A stretch of DNA of 41,543 nt from a virus (lineage: Duplodnaviria > Heunggongvirae > Uroviricota > Caudoviricetes). The first letter of the stretch is position 1; each line of letters starts with the position of its first letter. The stretch is from the IMG/VR virus record IMGVR_UViG_2917413769_000002, positions 1 through 41,543 of that record. One strand, given 5' to 3'. Both the position numbers and the translations under genes were made by a program. This document shows, piece after piece, positions 16,887 to 38,849 of the stretch. The notes under the pieces are model-generated. The model was given only the letters and a program-made list of their open reading frames with translations, ran no database searches and was not told where the DNA came from.

Positions 16887-17639
16887 TCATTTTCTCGGTG
16901 CAGGAATCTGTACCTCAGGCCAGCATTCGCAGTTCGGTAAACATCCGGCGTGCCCGGTCATACCATCCAGCGTTGGAGGGTTATCCCAGCGGACAAATTT
17001 ATCTTTCATTTTCCGATGTGACGGGCGGGTGCCAGCACCATGAATACGCCACCAGTAACCCTCTGAGCCAACCGAAAGGGCTCTGGCCTGCGTCAGCGCG
17101 CCGGTAGCTCGTCCAATCTCTGTACGGGCAATCAGCTGCGCCCTGCTGGCGGCCACGTCACCGGAGGCCATAATCATCTCGTAGAGCTGATCCGGACGTT
17201 CGCCAGTGATAACCGCCTGCATTGCACGCTGTTGTATGTCCATCACGCGATCGGCAGCTTCCAGCGGCAGGGACTTCATCAGCTGAATCTGGCGGTACAC
17301 TATATCCTGCGCCACCTGCCCGACGGGGGTATTACCCACCACATCGCGCAGGCCAGCGCCGATTTCCTCTGATACCGATTTCCACAGATTCCATTCCTCC
17401 TGCTCGACCTGGGCAAACATCCTTCGCCCGACCTGCTCTGCCCAGTCGCTGATTACTTCGGAATAGTCCACCAGCGTTTTCGAAATGCTGTCAGCGCTAG
17501 CCTGTGAACCATCGTAGGTACCATCGACGATCTGCCCTATCTGGTTTGCTATCGCCAACAGGCTTTTTCGATACTGGATCTCCGAACGGCGGCGGAGGGA
17601 TGGTTTCAGGTTCATCCTCCTCCCACTGGGCCTTCGCAT
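16887..17639 (-). CDS. head morphogenesis protein (MuF / SPP1 gp7-like minor head protein)
   Basis: 250-aa ORF downstream of portal; start ambiguous (ATG 17639 or ATG 17615, the latter with GGAGG directly upstream). Confidence 0.65.
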   Translation of the reverse strand: MRRPSGRRMNLKPSLRRRSEIQYRKSLLAIANQIGQIVDGTYDGSQASADSISKTLVDYSEVISDWAEQVGRRMFAQVEQEEWNLWKSVSEEIGAGLRDVVGNTPVGQVAQDIVYRQIQLMKSLPLEAADRVMDIQQRAMQAVITGERPDQLYEMIMASGDVAASRAQLIARTEIGRATGALTQARALSVGSEGYWWRIHGAGTRPSHRKMKDKFVRWDNPPTLDGMTGHAGCLPNCECWPEVQIPAPRK

Positions 17640-20776: not shown

Positions 20777-21380
20777 TCAGCCCATGAATTTTTTGTAGAT
20801 ATCTGCGACCTCATGCGGGGACAGGTTCGCCGCGTCGGCTTTGGCTGCCTCGTCCATATTGGTGAACGATTCGAAAATTTTCGGCGCTCCAAGCTCCATA
20901 AGCAGGGTTTCCGGAACCTTTATTCCCTCAGCCTCAAGCAGCTGCGCCGCCTGCAGCGCGGTGTATTTACCATCTACCTTGTGCTTCATCACCTCACGAA
21001 GCACATCACGCTGACGGTCCTCTTCCCCCATAAACACTGCGGCCGAGTCCAAGAGCTTTGGCAAACACCGCAACATCATTGTGCGTTGGTAAAACATCCT
21101 CGACGGTTGTTTTCAGTCCATCAGGGGATTTGGTGACAATCTTTCGCTTCCGAACGTCCAGGCTTTTACCTGCAACGTTGTTAATCTTTTCCATCAGAAC
21201 TTCGCGAGCCTCGGTAAAGGCACGATTAAAGTCGGCGTGTTCCTTGCGCCAGTTGCGGATAGTCGCCTCGTCAATTTCCAGTCGCTGGGCAACCATACGG
21301 TTTGAGATCTTGTTACGGGCCAGAGCCATATCAATAACGATACCGACGTAGGCCTTCTTAAAGCTATTTTTACGGGCCAT
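20777..21380 (-). CDS. terminase small subunit, interrupted by an apparent frameshift (two ORFs 21006-21380 and 20777-21097)
   Basis: N-terminal ORF has HTH-like start MARKNSFKKAY...; C-terminal ORF continues in another frame with 92-nt overlap; G5 run at 21025-21029 (minus strand) is the candidate shift site. Confidence 0.6.
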
Positions 21381-21626: not shown

Positions 21627-22631
21627 TCAGTCCAAATCCATCTCCACCACTTCACCGAACAGGTGACCGTAAACGTCCATTGTGGTTTTGATGTTCGAAT
21701 GCCCAATAAGTCGGGAAACCTTCAGAATATCGACGCCTTTGTTTGCCAGGCGAGATACAGCAAAGTGGCGAAGATGATGGAATCGCTTAATGCCATAGTC
21801 GTTCAGGGTTCTGACGAGAACGCCCTGAGTGCCGTAACTGGTAGCAAGGCATGCGCCGGTAAACTGATTGCAGATAAGAGGCTCAGAGGAACCCAGCTTA
21901 TTTTTATCCAGCAACGCGAAAAGCTCACGCGGCATCCGTACCCGGCGCTCCACTCCTCTTTTCAGCCCCTCATGTATAACGCCGTCAACAACATGCCCCC
22001 GGATGTCGATCCAGTCGGCTGACACGTCGTTATAAGTAACCGCCAGAGCCTCACCGATACGCAGGCCACAAATCCCGAGCCAGCACGCGATACGCTCACG
22101 AACTGGCGCGTTATTCAGTAGCTCCCTGACCGATGATGATGGCGGTATGGTGATGGGTCGACGCTTCCGGCGCGCTGGACGGTCAACAGGGTTAAAAGTG
22201 ATGAGCCGCTTTTCCACCAGCAGGAAGAAAGCCGAACGAATCCAGCGATGGCAGCCGGTGCGAACCGAATCAACGATATCGCGATGGCTGATATGGAGAA
22301 TATTTTTTTCCAGTATCGGCCCGTCTACAGCGAGAAGATCGTGACGGCATTTCGTATATGACGACAGCCGTATGATATTTTTTTCCAGCTTGCCGGCCTG
22401 ATACCCCAGATAAAACAGAATTAACTTTCGGAAAGTCCAGGAATGGTCTATTCCGGTCCAGCTGGCGGTTCGACAATCCAGCTCAATATTCTGTTTTTGC
22501 CAGAAAAGATGTGCGGCATCATCAATATTCTTAAAGATGCGGCGGCGCCCATGACCGGATTTTTCATCCTTCCAGTGGACGTAATATTTTGATTGTCCAT
22601 TGGCATCAGTGGATTCTTTTATCGAAGCCAT
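21627..22631 (-). CDS. tyrosine site-specific recombinase (integrase family) with arm-binding-like N-terminal domain
   Basis: C-terminal catalytic signature R (LRIGEALA), H-x-x-R (HHLRH) and Tyr (…TTMDVYGHL); N-terminus GQSKYYVHWKDEKSGHGRRRIF resembles AP2-like integrase arm-binding domains; ATG 22631 with GAGGA upstream. Confidence 0.75.
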   Translation of the reverse strand: MASIKESTDANGQSKYYVHWKDEKSGHGRRRIFKNIDDAAHLFWQKQNIELDCRTASWTGIDHSWTFRKLILFYLGYQAGKLEKNIIRLSSYTKCRHDLLAVDGPILEKNILHISHRDIVDSVRTGCHRWIRSAFFLLVEKRLITFNPVDRPARRKRRPITIPPSSSVRELLNNAPVRERIACWLGICGLRIGEALAVTYNDVSADWIDIRGHVVDGVIHEGLKRGVERRVRMPRELFALLDKNKLGSSEPLICNQFTGACLATSYGTQGVLVRTLNDYGIKRFHHLRHFAVSRLANKGVDILKVSRLIGHSNIKTTMDVYGHLFGEVVEMDLD

Positions 22632-22695
22632 ACTGAACAATCCTCACTCAAAAAACATTATCAAAGCCACTCGGTGAATGGCTTTTGTAATGAAT

Positions 22696-23427: not shown

Positions 23428-23455
23428 AGAAAAAAAGCCCCGCTATTGCGAGGCT
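23428..23455 (-). terminator. intrinsic terminator at end of lysis cassette
   Basis: minus-strand AGCCTCGC-AATA-GCGGGGCT followed by TTTTTTT; overlaps the Rz stop codon. Confidence 0.65.
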
Positions 23456-24862: not shown

Positions 24863-25477
24863 TTAAATTCTGCGGAAAGCGTACGAAGCGACGCCCTTAC
24901 GCCCTAACTGGCATTCGATTGTGTTTTGCTCTGCGCAGGTGAAGCCCTGCTCTGCAAACCAGCGCCTGATACCTTCATCAGTGAAATACCAGATGTGCTC
25001 GTTCTTTCTGAAATGATGGGAGCGGAGAATGTCTCCGGCATCAGTGAAAATCGGGATCGACACGAAAACGTATTCACTGGCCTGCTGTACCGCCAGCTCC
25101 GGCTCGTCGATGTGTTCCAGTACATCCCACATCGTCAGTGCTCGCCACTTATTGGCGTAGAGATCTGCGAATGCGCCCCGCTCGTTCAGCCAGGCAATAC
25201 CGGCCGGATTAACGTCATACCCAAGCGTTCCCGGTCGGATAGAGACGAACTGACCGGCACCGATACCAACGTCGAGAACAGGGCCGTGAAAATGGCGATC
25301 CACCAGCTCAATACGGGATTGCGTTAAAGCTCTGCCCGTTTCGGTGTCAGCCAGCTGCTGATACTTTGCGAAATACTGCTCGTCATACGGGCGTGATGCC
25401 GGAACGGGGTAACGTCCGATCCCCAGCTCCGGTAAAAATACCAGCCCGCTTTCCAGTTCCTGATAAAACGACTTCAT
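24863..25477 (-). CDS. class I SAM-dependent methyltransferase
   Basis: motif I VLDVGIGAGQF and acidic motif II ...DVLEHIDEPE; ATG 25477 with GAGG upstream; 95-nt overlap with the upstream GT9-like ORF. Confidence 0.7.
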   Translation of the reverse strand: MKSFYQELESGLVFLPELGIGRYPVPASRPYDEQYFAKYQQLADTETGRALTQSRIELVDRHFHGPVLDVGIGAGQFVSIRPGTLGYDVNPAGIAWLNERGAFADLYANKWRALTMWDVLEHIDEPELAVQQASEYVFVSIPIFTDAGDILRSHHFRKNEHIWYFTDEGIRRWFAEQGFTCAEQNTIECQLGRKGVASYAFRRI

Positions 25478-26321
25478 GGAGCCAGGCCTCGAATTTATCG
25501 GAGAAATTTGAAATCCGCTTGTCGCAGTGGTGATCCCATGCTTCACAGCGGCAGTAATTGTCGGGAATTGCCCAGCCAACACGAGAAAGGTCCATCGCCG
25601 GATCGGTTACGATTTCCGGGGCGTTGTGGCCGCCCCGCCCACCAGCAACAACATAGACAGGCGTTCTGTAGGCGATGGCAGCAGGAAGCGCCCAGCCAAC
25701 CGGCGAAACCACTACGGCAGCGTGTTCAATCAGGCGCATCAGCGATTTAAAATTGAGCTGGCCGGAGTGCAGCCGCAGATCCGCTTCGGGAAGTTCGCCG
25801 ACCGCCCACTCTTCCCCCTCCTGCAGGTCAGCCACGCTGATCACACAGAAATGTTTTCGCAGTAACCGGGAGGCCTGCAGCAGATAATCAGGATCAGGGT
25901 TGCGAGAGTCGCTACGCCACTCAGATCGCACTGTTGCCGGGCGGATCACCGCAATCGGCTTTTGGTGGGTAAATTCCGCCGGGCCGAAGGAAGGCAGATC
26001 CAGCGCTGCTGGCTCTACGCCGAACTGCTGGCGCATAGCGTCAAAAATTGAGCCGCGCCGCAGGTGCTGTGGCCCGTAGAAAATGCGCTTTGTCTGGCGC
26101 ATATCCGGTGGCTGCTGGAAAGCGGCTTGCGTCCGGTATTCGTTCTTGCGTTGCGTTCGGAGCGTTGTAAAGCTACGAACGGGCAGAACGGGTAAATCTT
26201 CGTAGATTTCAGGCCAGGCGGTTTTGATGTAACTCCCCGGCGGTAACTGCTTTACGAAAGCCCGCTGGTAGATACTGTCACCCATGCCCAGCATGCCATC
26301 GATAAAAAGAGGAACGTTCAA
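25383..26321 (-). CDS. GT9-family glycosyltransferase-like protein (heptosyltransferase fold)
   Basis: N-terminal ...LFIDGMLGMGDSIYQ... and C-terminal ...VVSPVGWALPAAIAYRTPVYVVAGG... resemble WaaC/WaaF-type heptosyltransferases as recalled; TTG start coupled to upstream stop. Confidence 0.6.
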   Translation of the reverse strand: MNVPLFIDGMLGMGDSIYQRAFVKQLPPGSYIKTAWPEIYEDLPVLPVRSFTTLRTQRKNEYRTQAAFQQPPDMRQTKRIFYGPQHLRRGSIFDAMRQQFGVEPAALDLPSFGPAEFTHQKPIAVIRPATVRSEWRSDSRNPDPDYLLQASRLLRKHFCVISVADLQEGEEWAVGELPEADLRLHSGQLNFKSLMRLIEHAAVVVSPVGWALPAAIAYRTPVYVVAGGRGGHNAPEIVTDPAMDLSRVGWAIPDNYCRCEAWDHHCDKRISNFSDKFEAWLHEVVLSGTGKRAGIFTGAGDRTLPRSGITPV

Positions 26322-26869
26322 AGTGCGACCTCGCGAAGCGCCTCATTGAGGCTGAGCCGCCGGAAGCACTTCAGCGCAGTCTGGCGGCTGCTGTTAATGA
26401 TGTTGACCTTCCCGGCCAGCGCTCTGGCTGTACTGGCGAACTCGCCGCGCCACCGTTCGGCATTTTCTGCCGTTGGGTTATCGAGCCCAACATGATCACC
26501 ATGCCAGTGACTGCCATCAGCGACAGAACAGTCGAACCCGAGCAGAATGATATTTTTCGCGCCCAGGCTGGCGGCGAACAGAATTGATCGCTGACCTGAG
26601 TTGAACGCCCAGCGCGTGTCCGTATCGAAAAGGTGCAGGCCGTAGCGCGTGTGTGCCCGATAATTGCAGGTCCACAGGGCAGCCGAGGGAGGCAGAACGC
26701 CAATATTTGCATCCCACCAGCGAAGATCACCCGCGTAAATGTGCGAGCAACCCGGTACCGCGTGCCAGGACGAATTGACCGCTATGACGGGAAAGCCCGT
26801 GCTGATAGCCGTCTGACAATCGTCGTGAGTGAGGGATGGACCGGAAGCGCAGACGATCGCCGTGTTCAT
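26318..26869 (-). CDS. Rossmann-like putative glycosyltransferase (CstII / DUF115-like)
   Basis: ATG 26869 with GGTGA upstream; N-terminus MNTAIVCASGPSL...VIAVNSSW mirrors the GxGPSL...N motif of CstII-type sialyltransferases (from memory). Confidence 0.45.
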   Translation of the reverse strand: MNTAIVCASGPSLTHDDCQTAISTGFPVIAVNSSWHAVPGCSHIYAGDLRWWDANIGVLPPSAALWTCNYRAHTRYGLHLFDTDTRWAFNSGQRSILFAASLGAKNIILLGFDCSVADGSHWHGDHVGLDNPTAENAERWRGEFASTARALAGKVNIINSSRQTALKCFRRLSLNEALREVAL

Positions 26870-26967
26870 ACGAGAATCACCGTTTGATATTGAGCCGAAT
26901 AGCCCTTGCAATTGGCTCACACACTGAGCCGAATTTCCGAATGGCTGCCGCTGTCACCCGCATGGTG

Positions 26968-27219
26968 TCACGATTGCGAAATCACCACTGTTACAGCATT
27001 GGTGGTGATCGTATTCTGCCCGTCGCCGCACTTATCACAGGTGCTATCGTGACGCTCCATTGCAATAAACGCGGCGGCTATGCAACGCCCCAAATATTCA
27101 AAATCACTCACTCCCGAGTTAGCCCGAGCCACAATAAGCTGGCCCAGTGCGATTTTTGCCTGTGAGCGGGATTCAGAAGATAATTCGTTAAATTGCATAA
27201 CTGGCTCCAGAAACGACAA
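26968..27219 (-). CDS. hypothetical protein
   Basis: 83-aa ORF between Q and the enzyme cluster; no recognisable motif. Confidence 0.35.
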   Translation of the reverse strand: MSFLEPVMQFNELSSESRSQAKIALGQLIVARANSGVSDFEYLGRCIAAAFIAMERHDSTCDKCGDGQNTITTNAVTVVISQS

Positions 27220-27290
27220 AACCCCACCATTGCTGGCAGGGTTTCGATTATTAAGCGTTGTGTCGAAGTGACCACTCTTAACACGTTAAA

Positions 27291-27711
27291 CTAAAAAATG
27301 CGGACCGCACTAGCACTTTTTTGATTATTTTGAATGCTCACTACGGCGTCCATTTCCAGGCGAACATCCAGCATCGACAGGCAGCCTTCAATGAATCCCT
27401 CGGCAAGCAGCATCTCTATGCGTATCTGCTTTTCGCTTTTCTTCCTGCGCTTCGCCATCTGCCGTTTTGAATACCGGAGAATATAATGCCCGACCAGCAA
27501 GTGATAATCGTATGGGCATTTTTTTTATCAGGCGTGCCATGCAGCCCTCGATAATCAGCCCATCGTCGTCGGTACACATGATCCGCGTTTTGCTGGTTTG
27601 CGGAAGCAGCCCCTTAAAACCAGCAGCGATGGAAGAATAATCAATATTGCATGAATCGCTTGCCGCCCACGCGCCCCACATATCAAGAACCTTTTGCATA
27701 TCACGCATCAT
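27291..27711 (-). CDS. late antiterminator Q (QuuD-type), interrupted by an apparent frameshift (ORFs 27388-27711 and 27291-27500)
   Basis: N-terminal ORF MMRDMQKVLDMWGAWAA...IDYSSIAAGFKGLLP...CTDDDGL is Q-like as recalled; C-terminal continuation ...SMLDVRLEMD... in another frame; T8 run at 27519-27526 is the most likely shift site. Confidence 0.6.
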
Positions 27712-28679
27712 GCAGCCACCTTTTTCTTATAGAAAACCTGCTCACGGACCTGATCACCGTTCATGAGCATGTCGTTGAAATCGCCGTTATCAGGCCAGCG
27801 CACGCTGACTTTAACGATGTCATTTTTCGCCATGAGATTGGCGTGGGCGCACTCGAACGCCGCCGCCTGGCCGGTGGCAGAGTGTTTATCCATATCAGCG
27901 AAAATAACCAAGTGTTTTACCCCCGCCGGCGCACGGAATTTCTTCATGAAATTGCTGTTCATCACCGCCCAGGTATTCACGCCGTAGATCTGATAACAGG
28001 ACAGCGCCGTTTCGATACCCTCGGCGATCCCCAGCGTTGAGGAAACCGGAAACATGCGAATGGCTACAGAGCGGGCATATTCGAGATAGTTGTCTTCCTG
28101 CAGGGATTTTTGCCGTTTGGCGCTTTCGCCCAGCGGCGCTTTGCGATCCCCTTCGAGCAACGTCCGATGGAGATAGCACAGCTCACCTTTATCATCGGTG
28201 GCGAGGGCGTAGAGGACGTGATAAATCTTGCCAGCATGGCGCTGCTTATCGCAAAACCTGATGGCTTCAGCGGGTAATTTGTTGATCCCGCGCTGACGGA
28301 AATATCCGGCACCATTGGTACCGTGCAGAGCCGGAAGTTTTGAAAACTTGCTGATCACCCGCTGGCGCAGCTTCGCGGCGGAGCTGTGGGCAGGGATTTT
28401 TTCACGCTGGTAGTCATTACCAATAAGCTGATCCACCTCGGCGCAGAGTGCCGAGAAGGTTTTACTGGTCTGCGTGGCCGAAAGCAACTTCATGCCGTCG
28501 CCGCTGCCGCACACGCAGATCCATGTACCGGCACCATCGCGATCGTCTATACGGAACTTACCGCGTGCGCTGCATACCGGGCACTCCCCTTTGTAGTGGT
28601 TTTTCCCGGTTATTGGTGGCAGGCCGTAATGCTCAAATATTTCGGGCCAGCGGCCTTTCGCCGCTTCTGCTGTCTTCAC
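27708..28679 (-). CDS. DNA primase (zinc-binding + Toprim, P4-alpha / TraC-like)
   Basis: N-terminal Cys cluster CPVCSA...CVCGSGDG (zinc-binding); Toprim-like acidic motifs later; GTG start coupled to helicase stop. Confidence 0.7.
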   Translation of the reverse strand: MKTAEAAKGRWPEIFEHYGLPPITGKNHYKGECPVCSARGKFRIDDRDGAGTWICVCGSGDGMKLLSATQTSKTFSALCAEVDQLIGNDYQREKIPAHSSAAKLRQRVISKFSKLPALHGTNGAGYFRQRGINKLPAEAIRFCDKQRHAGKIYHVLYALATDDKGELCYLHRTLLEGDRKAPLGESAKRQKSLQEDNYLEYARSVAIRMFPVSSTLGIAEGIETALSCYQIYGVNTWAVMNSNFMKKFRAPAGVKHLVIFADMDKHSATGQAAAFECAHANLMAKNDIVKVSVRWPDNGDFNDMLMNGDQVREQVFYKKKVAA

Positions 28680-30420: not shown

Positions 30421-30620
30421 CCAATGGAGCTGCCTTCTGGAAAAGGCCTATTCCCATCCCTCTCCGATCTCCCCCCTTACCCCCCTCTTACCTCTCCCTT
30501 ATTCATGTACTAGATAGCTAGTACAATCAGGCGTAAAAAAAGTAAGTGGGTGGTCCCAGCTTCATCAGCAGCTGACGCCTTTAAGTCAGACTGCAACCAG
30601 GCACCTTTAAGCCCGGTATC
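30421..30620. promoter_or_regulatory. candidate origin / early-promoter region with repeats
   Basis: ~50-nt polypyrimidine tract with CTTAC-type repeats (30445-30500), perfect inverted repeat TGTACTAG-ATAG-CTAGTACA (~30488-30510), two CCTTTAAG copies. Confidence 0.35.
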
Positions 30621-31200: not shown

Positions 31201-31289
31201 CATCAAGTTAAATTTGATATTGAATGTAATATATCAAGTTTTAATTAACATGCAACACAAACACTTCTCATGTAGACTTGATATCAAGG
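31201..31289. promoter_or_regulatory. OR-like operator region between cro and cI
   Basis: three sites sharing ATCAAG/CTTGAT half-sites: ATCAAGTTAAATTTGATAT (31201-31219), TATCAAGTTTTAATTAACAT (31231-31250), perfect palindrome CTTGATATCAAG (31276-31287). Confidence 0.65.
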
Positions 31290-31345
31290 ATTGCTTTATT
31301 TTTATGCGTGATAATCTTGCGAGTAACCGACAAACTGGGAGAGGT

Positions 31346-31919
31346 TATGGACACCACAAACACGATCAACGAACTGCTAAAAATGAAGGGCTGGACTCAG
31401 CGAGAACTGGCTCGCAGGCTCAATGTCAGCGCCCAATCAGTTCAATACTGGACAACGGGGAAAACATTCCCAAGAGGTAAGCGACTTGCGCGGCTTTCGG
31501 AGATCAGCGGTCTCCCGCAATCATGGTTTCTTGGCGAGAAACAAAGCACGACTTTCCCTGCGGCCGCTGCACCAGATGAGCAGACTGATAGCGTTACTTT
31601 TAAGGTTCTTGATGTTGAATTCAGTTGTGGTGATGGGACGAGTGTAAAGGGGGACTTTGTTGATGTTGTCAGGTCAATAGAACTTGATCCAGAGTACGCC
31701 CGCCAGCTCGTAGGTAATAGACCATTCAAAAATATCGAGATAGGTAATGCTCGTGGGGACAGCATGTGTCCCACTATAGCCCCTGGAGACCTACTATTTC
31801 TCGATAAAACAGTTACATACTTTGATGGTGACGGGATCTACGCTTTCTGTTTTGATGGGGAATGTTATGTAAAAACGCCTGCAAAAGGTTGGCACAAAAA
31901 TAGTGGTCTTATCCGATAA
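31346..31919 (+). CDS. cI: CI-like repressor (HTH-XRE + S24 LexA-like peptidase domain), 3' end frameshifted; intact frame would end at 32025
   Basis: SD GGGAGAGG before ATG 31346; HTH ...WTQRELARRLNVSAQSVQYW...; S24 motif GDSMCPTI; removing one A from the A5 run at 31871-31875 restores ...YVKRLQKVGTKIVVLSDNANY... including the canonical VKRL. Confidence 0.8.
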
Positions 31920-35484: not shown

Positions 35485-35667
35485 ATGAGTACAGACTTCA
35501 TGACAGAACAAGAGGTTTCTGAGTTGCTTCAGAAAAAAAGAACAGCTTTATATAACCTCAGAAAAAAACATGGTTTCCCTGAGCCAGTCCTCACCCACCC
35601 AGCGAGATATAGCCGCAAAGCCGTGGAAAACTGGATCAGTGCAGGCGGAGTTAACCGAGCTGTTTAA
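35485..35667 (+). CDS. AlpA / excisionase-family HTH protein
   Basis: 60-aa ORF; position next to and convergent with the integrase. Confidence 0.6.
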   Translation: MSTDFMTEQEVSELLQKKRTALYNLRKKHGFPEPVLTHPARYSRKAVENWISAGGVNRAV

Positions 35668-36820
35668 CGTGCCAGAGGATTTTATCAGCATACAGCTCGT
35701 AAGCTGCTTTCTGCTCAGGTAACCAGTCGTGTTTATTATACACGGCCATCACCCCGCCAAGCTCGTGCCCCAGCATCTTTTCGGTGACATGGGGCATCAC
35801 CCCTTCTGCAGATAAATTCGTTACCAACGAACGGCGGAAATCATGCGTTCGCCACTCCGGGATATCGATTTTACCTCTCAATTTTTTCATATAGAGATTT
35901 GACGACGAACGGTCTATAGCGCGGTCAAGCGTCTGTCCGGGAAACAGCACAGAGTTCCCACTATTCAGCAGCCGCTCAACATAGGGTTTAACCTGGTCAA
36001 AGATAGGCCGTCGGATGACATTTCCCATCTTGGAATGCTCAGATGGAGTCGTCCAGATCAGATCATCCATATTGAACTCATCCGGCGTTGAAAGCCGCAG
36101 CTCAGATAAGCGTGGTCCCCAGAGCAATAGCAGCTGGTGCAGCACTTTATTGGAGGAGACGATCTTGTTATTTTCCAGTGCCAGCCAAACCTTCGCCAGT
36201 TCGGTGTATGTTAACACCCGCTCACCGACGTCAGGCTTCTTGCCTATGGTTTTCACACTTAACTTCATCAGCTCGCATGACGGAACCAACTGCCGGCTGA
36301 TGCACCAGTTAATTACCGAGCGTAGCTGTAACAGCAGAACGCGCGCTTTCTTTTTGTTCAGGCTTTCCTGTTTATCGAAAAAACGCACCCATGCAGAAAC
36401 CGGTACATTCGCCACTGGCGCATCTTCAAATTGTGTGTACATCGTGTTGTACACGACCGATTTATAAAGCGTCTGGGTGTTGGGCTTCAGACCGGATGCA
36501 TACTTATCCCACCACTGATCAAGGCATTCTTTGAGTGTCAGCTCGCCATCTTCACGGGCAAAATAATTTTTGGGGTTCACACCCTTCGTGTACAATGCGC
36601 GCATCTCACCGACGATAACCCTAGCGTCCTTGAGGGATGTCGAAGGATAGCGGCCAACCGTCAGGCGCACTGGTTTACCGTTCCATCGATAACGATACTG
36701 AAAAGTGATTGTGCCAGTTGGCGTGATCCGGGCACTGAGACCATCACCATCGGTGATTTCTGGTGCCGCAGAATACGGTTTACCGTTGATGCTCCGTAGT
36801 TTAGTGTCGCTGAGTGCCAA
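35651..36820 (-). CDS. int: P4-type tyrosine integrase
   Basis: C-terminal catalytic region ...WRTHDFRRS...GHELGGVMAVYNKH...; N-terminal ALSDTKLRSI...KPY... block typical of P4-family integrases; likely TTG start at 36820 (ORF track extends to 36931). Confidence 0.8.
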   Translation of the reverse strand: MALSDTKLRSINGKPYSAAPEITDGDGLSARITPTGTITFQYRYRWNGKPVRLTVGRYPSTSLKDARVIVGEMRALYTKGVNPKNYFAREDGELTLKECLDQWWDKYASGLKPNTQTLYKSVVYNTMYTQFEDAPVANVPVSAWVRFFDKQESLNKKKARVLLLQLRSVINWCISRQLVPSCELMKLSVKTIGKKPDVGERVLTYTELAKVWLALENNKIVSSNKVLHQLLLLWGPRLSELRLSTPDEFNMDDLIWTTPSEHSKMGNVIRRPIFDQVKPYVERLLNSGNSVLFPGQTLDRAIDRSSSNLYMKKLRGKIDIPEWRTHDFRRSLVTNLSAEGVMPHVTEKMLGHELGGVMAVYNKHDWLPEQKAAYELYADKILWHVKQLG

Positions 36821-37015
36821 TGCGCTATATCCTGTACACAAGGGTTTCAGGCATTCTGTACTCAATCTGTACTCAATGGCAAGTGAACGAACGCAAATAT
36901 CAGCATAAACAAGCTGGTAAATGATGAACAAAGACGCACTTACATCTTGATGTCAAAGCAGTAAAGGCGGTAGAATCAGCATCACGGTGAACAACCAAAA
37001 ACATCGCCGATCAAT

Positions 37016-37090
37016 GTCCCCTTAGTTAAATGGATATAACGAGCCCCTCCTAAGGGCTAATTGCAGGTTCGATTCCTGCAGGGGACACCA
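37016..37090 (+). tRNA. argW: tRNA-Arg (anticodon CCU), argW-like
   Basis: 75 nt: 7-bp acceptor stem GTCCCCT/AGGGGAC, T-arm GCAGG-TTCGATT-CCTGC, anticodon loop CTCCTAA, 3' CCA encoded. Confidence 0.9.
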
Positions 37091-37822: not shown

Positions 37823-38849
37823 TTATTTGATGCATTTAATTTTAGATTTTCTTTTCAAAATTAAGCCGCATGGAATCTCAATATATTTATAGCTTAAGTA
37901 TGAAGACAGAAGAATAAGTACTATAATTGGTACAACCATCAATAATTTATCTAACATATAGATATCACATAGCTTATTTATTATACATATAATGATCACA
38001 TGCGAAAGATATGTCGAGTATGACCAATCTCCAAGTTTAGATGCAATTCTTGATATAGTGCTATTGCCAATATTGTTTTCAAGACATAAAGCGGAAACAA
38101 TTAAAGCAGCGCAAGGGATTCCAATTTGGAGAAGTCTTTTTGATTCATTGCTAAAAAATATACTTATCAGTGATAATACGGATATTGTTAGTGCAGTTTT
38201 AACACCGATATTTCTGAATAGCCCATTATTATAACATATAGCTATTACCCCCCCCCATAACAAACTCAAACAACAGTTCATCATTATAGAAAAGAAATAC
38301 AGTAGACTCATTATTGCCAAGCCATGAAAACAAATTCATTACAACAAGAGGAATTAGAATACAGCAAATTTTTTTGTTGTTTTCAGGGAATAACAGAGAA
38401 ATAAATACGCACGTATAAAATAGCATTTCAAAATTAAGAGTCCACCCAACCGTTAGGGTTGGAATATACCAACCTATCTGTTGATTCATTACCGGAATAA
38501 AAGCAAGGCTTTTTAATACATTATTTAATCCAATCTCAGCAAACGGAATAACTCCGTGAAAATTGTATGATATTACCACTACCAGCAATGTGTAGAACCA
38601 ATATGCAGGAATAATTCTTACCATCCTATTGAGAGCAAATGACGTAGGTGTAATATTATTTTTCGATATTGACTTATAAATAATAAAGCCACTTATGATA
38701 AAAAACATATCGACACCATTGCCAGCCTTAAGTGCAATAGTGTGCATCAATTTGGATGATGCAGACCATTGAAACATGACTTGAGAAATATGATGATAAA
38801 CAACTGCCCAAGCAGCAAGTGCTCTTAAGATTTGTATTGACTTAATCAC
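37823..38849 (-). pseudogene. acyltransferase-3 family membrane protein (O-antigen acetylase-like), split by a frameshift at a G9 tract
   Basis: ORFs 38229-38849 and 37823-38320 overlap at a C9 run (38247-38255, plus strand); G8 would fuse them into a ~350-aa acyltransferase_3-like protein; strongly AT-rich region. Confidence 0.65.

What the first reader, a model, noticed from the sequence alone, without database searches (positions are those of the whole stretch)
27291..27711. Q antiterminator gene broken at a T8/A8 homopolymer
The Q-like N-terminus (…LDMWGAWAA…IDYSSIAAGFKGLLP…) stops being protein-like soon after the homopolymer, while the Q-like C-terminus (…SMLDVRLEMD…) continues in another frame that opens exactly at the run (27519-27526). 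A one-base change in the run fuses them into a ~140-aa Q. If real, late-gene expression would be crippled; if not, it marks an assembly indel.
Basis: seen in the sequence. Interest (0 to 1): 0.5.

Follow-up and report, generated by a model that had tools for sequence, protein, structure and literature searches.

The report
Q gene frameshift: sequencing artefact
A prophage late-gene regulator (Q antiterminator) does look split by one extra base in a run of eight A's, but this is almost certainly an Ion Torrent sequencing error in the deposited draft genome, so the finding is ordinary.

Summary
On the minus strand, a QuuD-type Q antiterminator gene (27711→27291) changes frame at the A8 run (27519-27526). 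Removing one A gives a 139-aa protein that covers Pfam PF06530 end to end. It is 100% identical to intact Q proteins in other assemblies and 50% identical to E. coli K-12 QuuD.

The break is very probably not biological. The window is base-for-base identical to contig PDIL01000012.1 of Escherichia sp. E1130, a draft assembled from single-end Ion Torrent reads. I compared 21 kb with the same prophage in another genome (VATL01000008.1). There are 0 substitutions and 6 single-base differences. All six are an extra base in the window inside a homopolymer, and the rate rises with run length (2/217 four-mers, 1/7 seven-mers, 1/1 eight-mers). Four of the six break genes that are intact elsewhere: Q, the CI-like repressor, a 200-aa gene and an acyltransferase. 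An independent Logan assembly (SRR6148301), which has no substitutions against the window, reads A7 and encodes an intact Q.

No other assembly carries the A8 allele. All 120 best homologues span both halves. Nothing suggests programmed recoding. Interest is low; the remaining uncertainty needs the raw reads or Sanger sequencing.

The parts
27291..27711 (-). QuuD-type Q antiterminator gene (PF06530), read in two frames as deposited. It is 139 aa once one A is removed from the run. Its start overlaps the primase stop codon (ATGA).
27388..27711 (-). ORF1, 107 aa: Q residues 1-64 followed by a 43-aa out-of-frame tail.
   Evidence: Pfam positions 1-68/118 only.
27291..27524 (-). +1-frame continuation encoding the C-terminal half of Q (KKCPYDY...SAVRIF).
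   Evidence: Pfam positions 65-118/118. Identical to P0001/P0002.
27519..27526 (.). Homopolymer, T8 on + and A8 on the coding strand. It is A7 in every other copy examined (L002, L003/L009, L004, L005, L010).
27230..27320 (-). Conserved block: the last ~30 nt of Q plus ~60 nt downstream. It is invariant in divergent loci and occurs in unannotated DNA upstream of holin genes in other lambdoid phages. It is a candidate late promoter / Q-loading region (inferred).
27217..27246 (-). Terminator-like hairpin (13-bp stem followed by a T-rich tail) between Q and the next gene.
27708..28679 (-). Toprim/zinc-ribbon primase gene immediately upstream of Q. The exact protein is named Escherichia sp. E1130 at NCBI.
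21025..21029 (.). Same class of difference: C5 in the window, C4 elsewhere. It splits a 200-aa gene into 124 + 84 aa.
23430..23436 (.). Same class: A7 in the window, A6 in VATL. Intergenic.
30535..30541 (.). Same class: A7 in the window and in L010, A6 in VATL. Intergenic.
31871..31875 (.). Same class: A5 in the window, A4 elsewhere. It truncates the CI-like HTH_3/Peptidase_S24 repressor (225 aa elsewhere).
38248..38256 (.). Same class: C9 in the window, C8 in VATL. It splits a 341-aa Acyl_transf_3 gene into 206 + 165 aa.

Best explanation
The gene is an ordinary QuuD-type Q antiterminator of 138-139 aa, carried by a lambdoid-style prophage of Escherichia sp. E1130. It sits after the helicase and primase genes and before the late and lysis genes. 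The apparent frameshift is one extra A called in an A7 run. This is a flow-sequencing (Ion Torrent) homopolymer overcall that survived into the deposited MIRA/SPAdes consensus. In the real phage the run is most likely A7 and Q is intact. Shown here: the identity of the gene, the position of the extra base, the platform, and the fact that this assembly's only differences from near-identical copies are homopolymer overcalls. Inferred: that the reads themselves do not support A8, and that Q acts at the conserved block just downstream of the gene.
For: (1) The window is 100% identical, with no gaps, to GCA_004745435.1 contig PDIL01000012.1 over 448-21593 and 11006-31380, A8 run included. PDIL00000000 is Escherichia sp. 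E1130: single-end Ion Torrent reads, about 50x coverage, assembled with MIRA and SPAdes (PMC6639607; the primase protein is named for E1130). (2) Against VATL01000008.1 (L009, 20,978 aligned bases) there are 0 mismatches and 6 gaps. All six are +1 in the window inside homopolymers. A random single-base insertion would extend a run of 4 or more with p≈0.02, so six of six has p≈1e-10. The discrepancy rate rises with run length: 2/217 four-mers, 0/75 five-mers, 2/21 six-mers, 1/7 seven-mers, 1/1 eight-mers. (3) Four of the six break ORFs that become full length when corrected and that match the gene calls in the other assembly. (4) Logan contigs from SRR6148301 show 0 mismatches to the window. 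They read A7 (intact 139-aa Q, P0001), C4 at 21029 and A4 at 31875. They also carry their own gene-breaking indels at 17186 and 26209, which marks that read set as indel-prone. (5) The 107- and 106-aa ORF1 products are on record nowhere in the 153-billion-gene collection. The 124-aa fragment made by the 21029 overcall is on record only in the PDIL contig. (6) Ion Torrent homopolymer indels are known to cause frameshifts in assemblies. In that study A was the most affected base and the affected runs reached 9 nt (PMC12046094).
Against: The raw reads were not inspected. The link between SRR6148301 and strain E1130 rests on zero substitutions, the shared A7 at 30541 and the timing of the accession numbers; no metadata confirm it. 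An A7 run is also a plausible hot spot for real replication slippage. The deposited 50x consensus does say A8. The sequencing platform of the comparator VATL assembly is unknown. All six differences go in the same direction, whereas flow-sequencing errors can go either way.
Confidence: 0.88

Rival explanations
1. The extra A is a real replication-slippage mutation (A7→A8) in the E1130 prophage. Q is then a pseudogene, late genes cannot be switched on, and the prophage is defective or being domesticated.
For: The deposited consensus reads A8. Mononucleotide runs are slippage hot spots (established knowledge). The CI-like repressor and two other genes are also broken in this assembly, as in a decaying prophage. 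No gene was called at the Q position in the GenBank record.
Against: The window shows six single-base insertions and no substitutions in 21 kb against another strain's copy. That would imply on the order of a thousand homopolymer insertions genome-wide with no point mutations, which even a mismatch-repair mutator would not produce. Two of the six lie in intergenic runs, where no selection story applies. The source is Ion Torrent data. An independent assembly with zero substitutions reads A7. The frameshifted product is absent from every other assembly on record.
Confidence: 0.09
2. A8 is real and functional. Full-length Q would be made at low level by transcriptional slippage on the A8/T8 tract, or by +1 re-pairing of tRNA-Lys (AAA→AAA, then UGC). 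That would throttle the late switch or make it phase-variable.
For: In frame 0 the sequence reads AUA AAA AAA AUG. A +1 slip of the P-site tRNA-Lys re-pairs perfectly and yields exactly the wild-type LIKK-CPYDY junction (inference). A/T runs of about 8-9 support measurable RNA polymerase slippage in enterobacteria (own knowledge, not tested here).
Against: The shifted arrangement is not conserved. All 120 best homologues are single-frame, and the KK dipeptide occurs in only 46 of 120. Every other DNA copy has A7. The only other frameshifted relative, P0136, breaks about 10 codons downstream of the run. There is no Shine-Dalgarno-like element, stop codon or rare codon at the site. The 89 nt after the run fold no better than shuffled sequence (z = +1.17). 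The same assembly also has equivalent +1 calls in intergenic runs.
Confidence: 0.02
3. ORF1 and ORF2 are two independent genes: a short Q and a separate small protein.
For: Both ORFs are open and each hits PF06530 on its own.
Against: The two hits are the two contiguous halves of a single domain profile (positions 1-68 and 65-118). The fusion scores 166.5 bits over 1-118. Alignments to QuuD (50% identity, full length) and to Q21 (PDB 6P18/6JNX, query residues 9-89) run straight through the junction. No homologue ends at the ORF1 stop.
Confidence: 0.01

Closest known systems
QuuD (b0551), the Q homologue of E. coli K-12 cryptic prophage DLP12; Pfam PF06530 Phage_antitermQ
   Same: The repaired protein matches the Pfam profile at full length (166.5 bits, 1-118/118). 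It is 50% identical to QuuD over the whole protein. Like QuuD, the gene lies just upstream of the lysis region.
   Different: It is 139 aa against 127 aa, with a longer C-terminal tail. It follows helicase and primase genes rather than a nin region. MptE-like, 312-aa and methyltransferase genes lie between Q and the holin gene. As deposited, the gene carries a +1 base in the A-run.
Q21 of phage 21 (PDB 6P18, 6JNX; Q-loaded RNA polymerase complexes)
   Same: There is detectable sequence homology (E = 4e-6, residues 9-89 against Q21 residues 20-101). A weak hit to PF06576/DUF1133 was also seen. By inference the protein does the same job: it loads onto RNA polymerase at the late promoter and lets it read through terminators.
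   Different: The relationship is distant and covers only the N-terminal two thirds. The fold and the DNA-binding element were not tested here.
Ion Torrent homopolymer indel artefacts in draft bacterial assemblies
   Same: The platform matches. The differences are single-base length errors restricted to homopolymers, mostly A/T. Their frequency rises with run length, they cause frameshifts, and they are not reproduced by a second assembly.
   Different: All six differences here are overcalls, whereas the platform produces both overcalls and undercalls. The reads themselves were not examined.
Programmed frameshifting or transcriptional slippage at A-runs (dnaX A AAA AAG, IS element transposases, Shigella mxiE)
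   Same: An A-run lies at the exact junction of two overlapping frames. tRNA-Lys could re-pair after a one-base slip.
   Different: The two-frame arrangement is not conserved in relatives. No stimulatory element was found. The direction needed is +1, not the -1 of dnaX and IS elements.

Membership tests
Q antiterminator, PF06530 / QuuD type | Full-length match to the family profile above the curated cut-off | tested here: met
   The repaired 139-aa protein scores 166.5 bits (cut-off 26) over profile positions 1-118/118. As deposited, the match is split into 1-68 and 65-118.
Q antiterminator, PF06530 / QuuD type | End-to-end similarity to a named member (QuuD) | tested here: met
   50% identity over 128 aligned residues, E = 8e-38, with the alignment continuous across the junction.
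Q antiterminator, PF06530 / QuuD type | Position between the early/replication genes and the lysis/late genes of a lambdoid prophage | tested here: met
   The order is helicase, primase, Q, then holin, lysozyme, spanin-like genes and packaging genes.
Q antiterminator, PF06530 / QuuD type | Cognate late promoter / Q-binding element immediately downstream, and antitermination activity | tested here: inconclusive
   A block at 27230-27320 is invariant in divergent loci. It recurs upstream of holin genes in mEp390, SfIV and other phages. A terminator-like hairpin lies at 27217-27246. No promoter, pause site or activity could be shown.
Sequencing/assembly homopolymer artefact | Source data come from a platform with known homopolymer-length errors | tested here: met
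   The window is identical to PDIL01000012.1. That assembly was built from single-end Ion Torrent reads (PMC6639607). The error type is described in PMC12046094.
Sequencing/assembly homopolymer artefact | The same class of difference recurs across the assembly, with no substitutions, and scales with run length | tested here: met
   6 gaps and 0 mismatches in 20,978 bases, all in homopolymers. Rates are 0.9% of four-mers, 9.5% of six-mers, 14% of seven-mers and 1/1 eight-mers.
Sequencing/assembly homopolymer artefact | Not reproduced in an independent assembly or sequencing of the same DNA | tested here: met
   Logan SRR6148301 contigs (0 mismatches to the window) read A7, C4 and A4 at three of the four covered sites. 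The frameshifted products are absent from the collection. Caveat: it is inferred, not shown, that SRR6148301 is strain E1130.
Sequencing/assembly homopolymer artefact | Raw reads show a mixed or A7-majority run length at 27519-27526 | not testable with these tools
   Read data (SRX3260321) cannot be accessed here.
Programmed recoding (ribosomal frameshift / transcriptional slippage) | The two-frame arrangement is conserved among relatives | tested here: not met
   120 of 120 homologues are in a single frame, and KK occurs at the site in only 46 of 120. All other DNA copies have A7.
Programmed recoding (ribosomal frameshift / transcriptional slippage) | Stimulatory element: an SD-like sequence, a slow or stop codon in the A site, or a downstream structure | tested here: not met
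   The A-site codon is AUG, and no GGAGG-like element lies upstream. The downstream 89 nt fold with z = +1.17 against shuffles.
Phase-variable contingency locus | Run-length polymorphism between isolates, confirmed on an accurate platform | tested here: inconclusive
   Only this one Ion Torrent assembly has A8. No second A8 or A6 allele appeared in the viral, metagenome or genome-representative scans, or in the protein collection.

The most novel reading that the evidence does not exclude
The A8 allele is real in strain E1130. Q would then be made only through occasional +1 tRNA-Lys re-pairing or RNA-polymerase slippage on the A8 tract, and the lysis switch of this prophage would be throttled or stochastically phase-variable. 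The repressor frameshift and the C9 tract in the acyltransferase might be further real homopolymer switches.
Probability: 0.03. Interest if true: 0.5.

Novelty: not a real feature. Interest (0 to 1): 0.07.

Why it matters
It matters mainly as quality control. This window comes from an Ion Torrent draft in which about one in ten homopolymers of six or more bases is overcalled. Every 'broken gene at a homopolymer' in this window should therefore be discounted unless it is confirmed independently. That covers Q, the CI-like repressor, the 200-aa gene at 21029 and the acyltransferase at the C9 tract. If the lesion were real, it would only describe a common event, the decay of a prophage by loss of its late-gene activator.

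Tried and rejected
1. Megablast of the locus against E. coli complete genomes found only an 88% match to the 3' half of the gene, a Q remnant in two strains. It found nothing in the phage collection, so neither gave a close comparator.

2. A pattern scan for the run with A6-A9 found no hit in genome contigs or metagenome contigs. It found one A7 copy in viral contigs.

3. Exact look-ups of the 107- and 106-aa ORF1 products found nothing on record.

4. A look-up of the 426-aa integrase ORF failed, probably because a different start codon was called. Cluster look-ups of the helicase and the integrase-like ORFs failed in the same way.

5. A search with ORF1, meant to find other carriers of the out-of-frame tail, found only P0136. 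That protein is frameshifted at a different place.

6. I looked for a frameshift-stimulating RNA structure after the run and found none.

7. Rfam found only a tRNA in the window.

8. The two-independent-genes reading and the programmed-recoding reading were considered and rejected, for the reasons given under the rival explanations.

9. The sigma-70-like hexamers at 27274-27247 are not claimed as the late promoter. The predicted hairpin would start immediately after them, and the -10 match is not conserved in L012.

Full report
**Observation.** The + strand has T8 at 27519-27526, so the coding (-) strand has A8. This is the only A/T run of 8 or more in the window. The gene runs on the minus strand from 27711 to 27291, and its ATG overlaps the stop codon of the upstream primase gene (ATGA).

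ORF1 (27388-27711, 107 aa) matches Pfam PF06530 Phage_antitermQ at profile positions 1-68 of 118. The +1-frame continuation matches positions 65-118. In that +1 frame, TGA and TAA stop codons lie immediately 5' of the run, with the TAA using its first two A's, so the frame opens at 27524. Removing one A gives a 139-aa ORF that matches the profile at 1-118/118 with 166.5 bits.

**What the gene is.** The repaired protein is 100% identical to P0001 (139 aa) and P0002 (138 aa; NCBI 'MULTISPECIES: antiterminator Q family protein [Enterobacteriaceae]'). It is 50% identical to E. coli K-12 QuuD over its full length. It is distantly related to Q21, whose complexes with RNA polymerase are solved (PDB 6P18, 6JNX; E = 4e-6). 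Both of those alignments run straight through the junction.

- The synteny is that of a lambdoid late switch: CI-like repressor, helicase, primase, Q, a few small or modification-type genes, holin, lysozyme, spanin-like genes, then packaging and Mu-like/myovirus-type structural genes.
- The last ~30 nt of Q plus ~60 nt downstream form a block that is invariant in otherwise divergent loci. The block recurs in unannotated DNA just upstream of holin genes in mEp390, SfIV, SfII, cdtI and Stx2a phages.
- I read this block as the cognate late promoter / Q-loading region. That is an inference; no promoter could be pinned down.

**Where the extra base is.** DNA alignment with other copies of the gene places the difference in the run. 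L003 and L004 are identical to the window over the aligned 437 bases except A7 against A8. L002 and L005, which are more divergent, also have A7.

**Source of the window.** The window is identical, with 0 mismatches and 0 gaps, to GCA_004745435.1 contig PDIL01000012.1 over 448-21593 (L006) and 11006-31380 (L011). That includes the A8 run. In that record no gene is called at the Q position.

PDIL00000000 is Escherichia sp. E1130, a cryptic clade II isolate from Hong Kong sediment. It was sequenced with single-end Ion Torrent reads of 35-400 bp at about 50x and assembled with MIRA and SPAdes (PMC6639607). The primase protein carries that strain's name at NCBI.

**Is the frameshift real?** The same prophage is present in GCA_005781065.1 (VATL01000008.1). 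Over 20,978 aligned bases (window 17705-38682) there are 0 substitutions and 6 single-base gaps. Each one is an extra base in the window inside a homopolymer:

| Window position | Window | VATL | Location and effect |
|---|---|---|---|
| 21029 | C5 | C4 | splits a 200-aa gene into 124 + 84 aa |
| 23436 | A7 | A6 | intergenic |
| 27526 | T8 | T7 | Q |
| 30541 | A7 | A6 | intergenic |
| 31875 | A5 | A4 | truncates the CI-like repressor |
| 38256 | C9 | C8 | splits a 341-aa acyltransferase |

- A random insertion extends a run of 4 or more with p≈0.02, so six of six has p≈1e-10.
- The fraction of runs affected climbs with run length: 2/217 four-mers, 0/75 five-mers, 2/21 six-mers, 1/7 seven-mers, 1/1 eight-mers.
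- Four of the six break ORFs that are restored to the lengths called in the other assembly once the base is removed: the 200-aa gene, Q at 139 aa, the repressor at 225 aa as called there, and the 341-aa acyltransferase.
- The other two lie in intergenic runs, where no story of selection for gene loss applies.

This is the error profile of flow-based sequencing. PMC12046094 describes Ion Torrent homopolymer indels that cause assembly frameshifts. [quoted passage not shown]

A real mutational origin would need roughly a thousand homopolymer insertions genome-wide with no accompanying point mutations.

**Independent assembly.** Logan contigs of SRR6148301 (L007, L010) show 0 mismatches to the window over about 21 kb. 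They read A7 in Q (intact 139-aa P0001), C4 at 21029 and A4 at 31875. They agree with the window only at the intergenic 30541 site.

- They also carry gene-breaking indels of their own, at 17186 (Mu-F-like gene split) and 26209 (312-aa gene). That marks the read set as indel-prone, with two assemblers resolving the noise differently.
- The ORF1 product (107 or 106 aa) is on record nowhere.
- The 124-aa fragment created by the 21029 overcall is on record only in the PDIL contig.
- I could not verify that SRR6148301 is the E1130 run. The inference rests on zero substitutions, the shared A7 at 30541 and the chronology of the accession numbers.

**Programmed recoding?** The site would allow a +1 slip. 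In AUA AAA AAA AUG, a P-site tRNA-Lys could re-pair one base on, and UGC would follow, which gives the wild-type junction. A/T tracts of this length can also support some RNA polymerase slippage (own knowledge). Nothing else supports this reading:

- The two-frame arrangement is unique to this assembly.
- The KK dipeptide is present in only 46 of 120 homologues.
- There is no Shine-Dalgarno-like element, stop codon or rare codon at the site.
- The downstream RNA folds no better than shuffled sequence (z = +1.17).
- The only other frameshifted relative found, P0136, is broken about ten codons further on.

**Verdict.** The gene is a known kind, a QuuD-type Q antiterminator. The break is best explained as an Ion Torrent homopolymer overcall in the deposited draft (confidence about 0.88). 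A real A7→A8 slippage mutation that inactivates Q remains possible (about 0.09). Recoding or phase variation is very unlikely (about 0.02).

The decisive test is simple: inspect the reads of SRX3260321, or Sanger-sequence across 27400-27650 in strain E1130. Interest is low. The practical value is the warning that other homopolymer-associated 'pseudogenes' in this window belong to the same artefact class.

Noticed in passing
window 38248-38256 (gene 37823-38849, -): A C9 tract splits an Acyl_transf_3 gene into 206 + 165 aa. With C8, as in VATL01000008.1, the gene is an intact 341 aa. Poly-C tracts in surface-modification genes can be true phase-variation switches, but here it is most likely another Ion Torrent overcall.
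   Followed up: partly
window 31871-31875 (ORF 31278-31919, +): An A5 run (A4 in two other assemblies) truncates the CI-like HTH_3 + Peptidase_S24 repressor. It is 225 aa elsewhere and is called as 190 aa in the PDIL record.
   Followed up: partly
window 21025-21029 (ORFs 21006-21380 and 20777-21097, -): A C5 run (C4 elsewhere) splits a 200-aa gene into 124 + 84 aa. The gene lies just upstream of the 538-aa gene that precedes the portal gene, so it may encode the small terminase subunit.
   Followed up: partly
window 21627-22640 (-): A second tyrosine-recombinase gene (334 aa, PF00589) sits between the lysis cassette and the packaging genes, far from the att-side integrase at 35651-36931. Its role is unknown.
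   Followed up: no
window 24863-26920 (-): Three genes lie between Q and the holin gene: an MptE-like gene (183 aa; faint PF01973 hit), a 312-aa gene with no family, and a Methyltransf_23 gene (204 aa). They may be a late-expressed DNA or cell-envelope modification module.
   Followed up: no
window 27230-27320 (-): A strongly conserved non-coding block follows Q. It includes GTTTAACGTGTTAAGAGTGGTCACTTCGACAC. It is shared with an E. coli prophage Q remnant and with the regions upstream of holin genes in mEp390, SfIV, SfII, cdtI and Stx2a phages. It is probably the late promoter / Q-loading site of this Q type.
   Followed up: partly
window 37016-37090 (+): A tRNA-Arg(CCT) gene lies between the prophage integrase (35651-36931, -) and the acyltransferase gene. 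The integrase is on the 5' side of the tRNA, which is not the usual arrangement for insertion at a tRNA 3' end.
   Followed up: no
L012 5001-5309 (Logan SRR27242264): Another member of this Q family (P0136, 102 aa) is frameshifted about 10 codons downstream of the A-run, in a phage with NinG and MT-A70 genes upstream. Whether this is real or an assembly error was not examined.
   Followed up: no
L007 (window 17186) and L010 (window 26209): The Logan assembly of SRR6148301 has single-base deletions of its own. These break a Mu-F-like gene and the 312-aa gene, both of which are intact in the window. This shows that the read set is indel-prone.
   Followed up: yes
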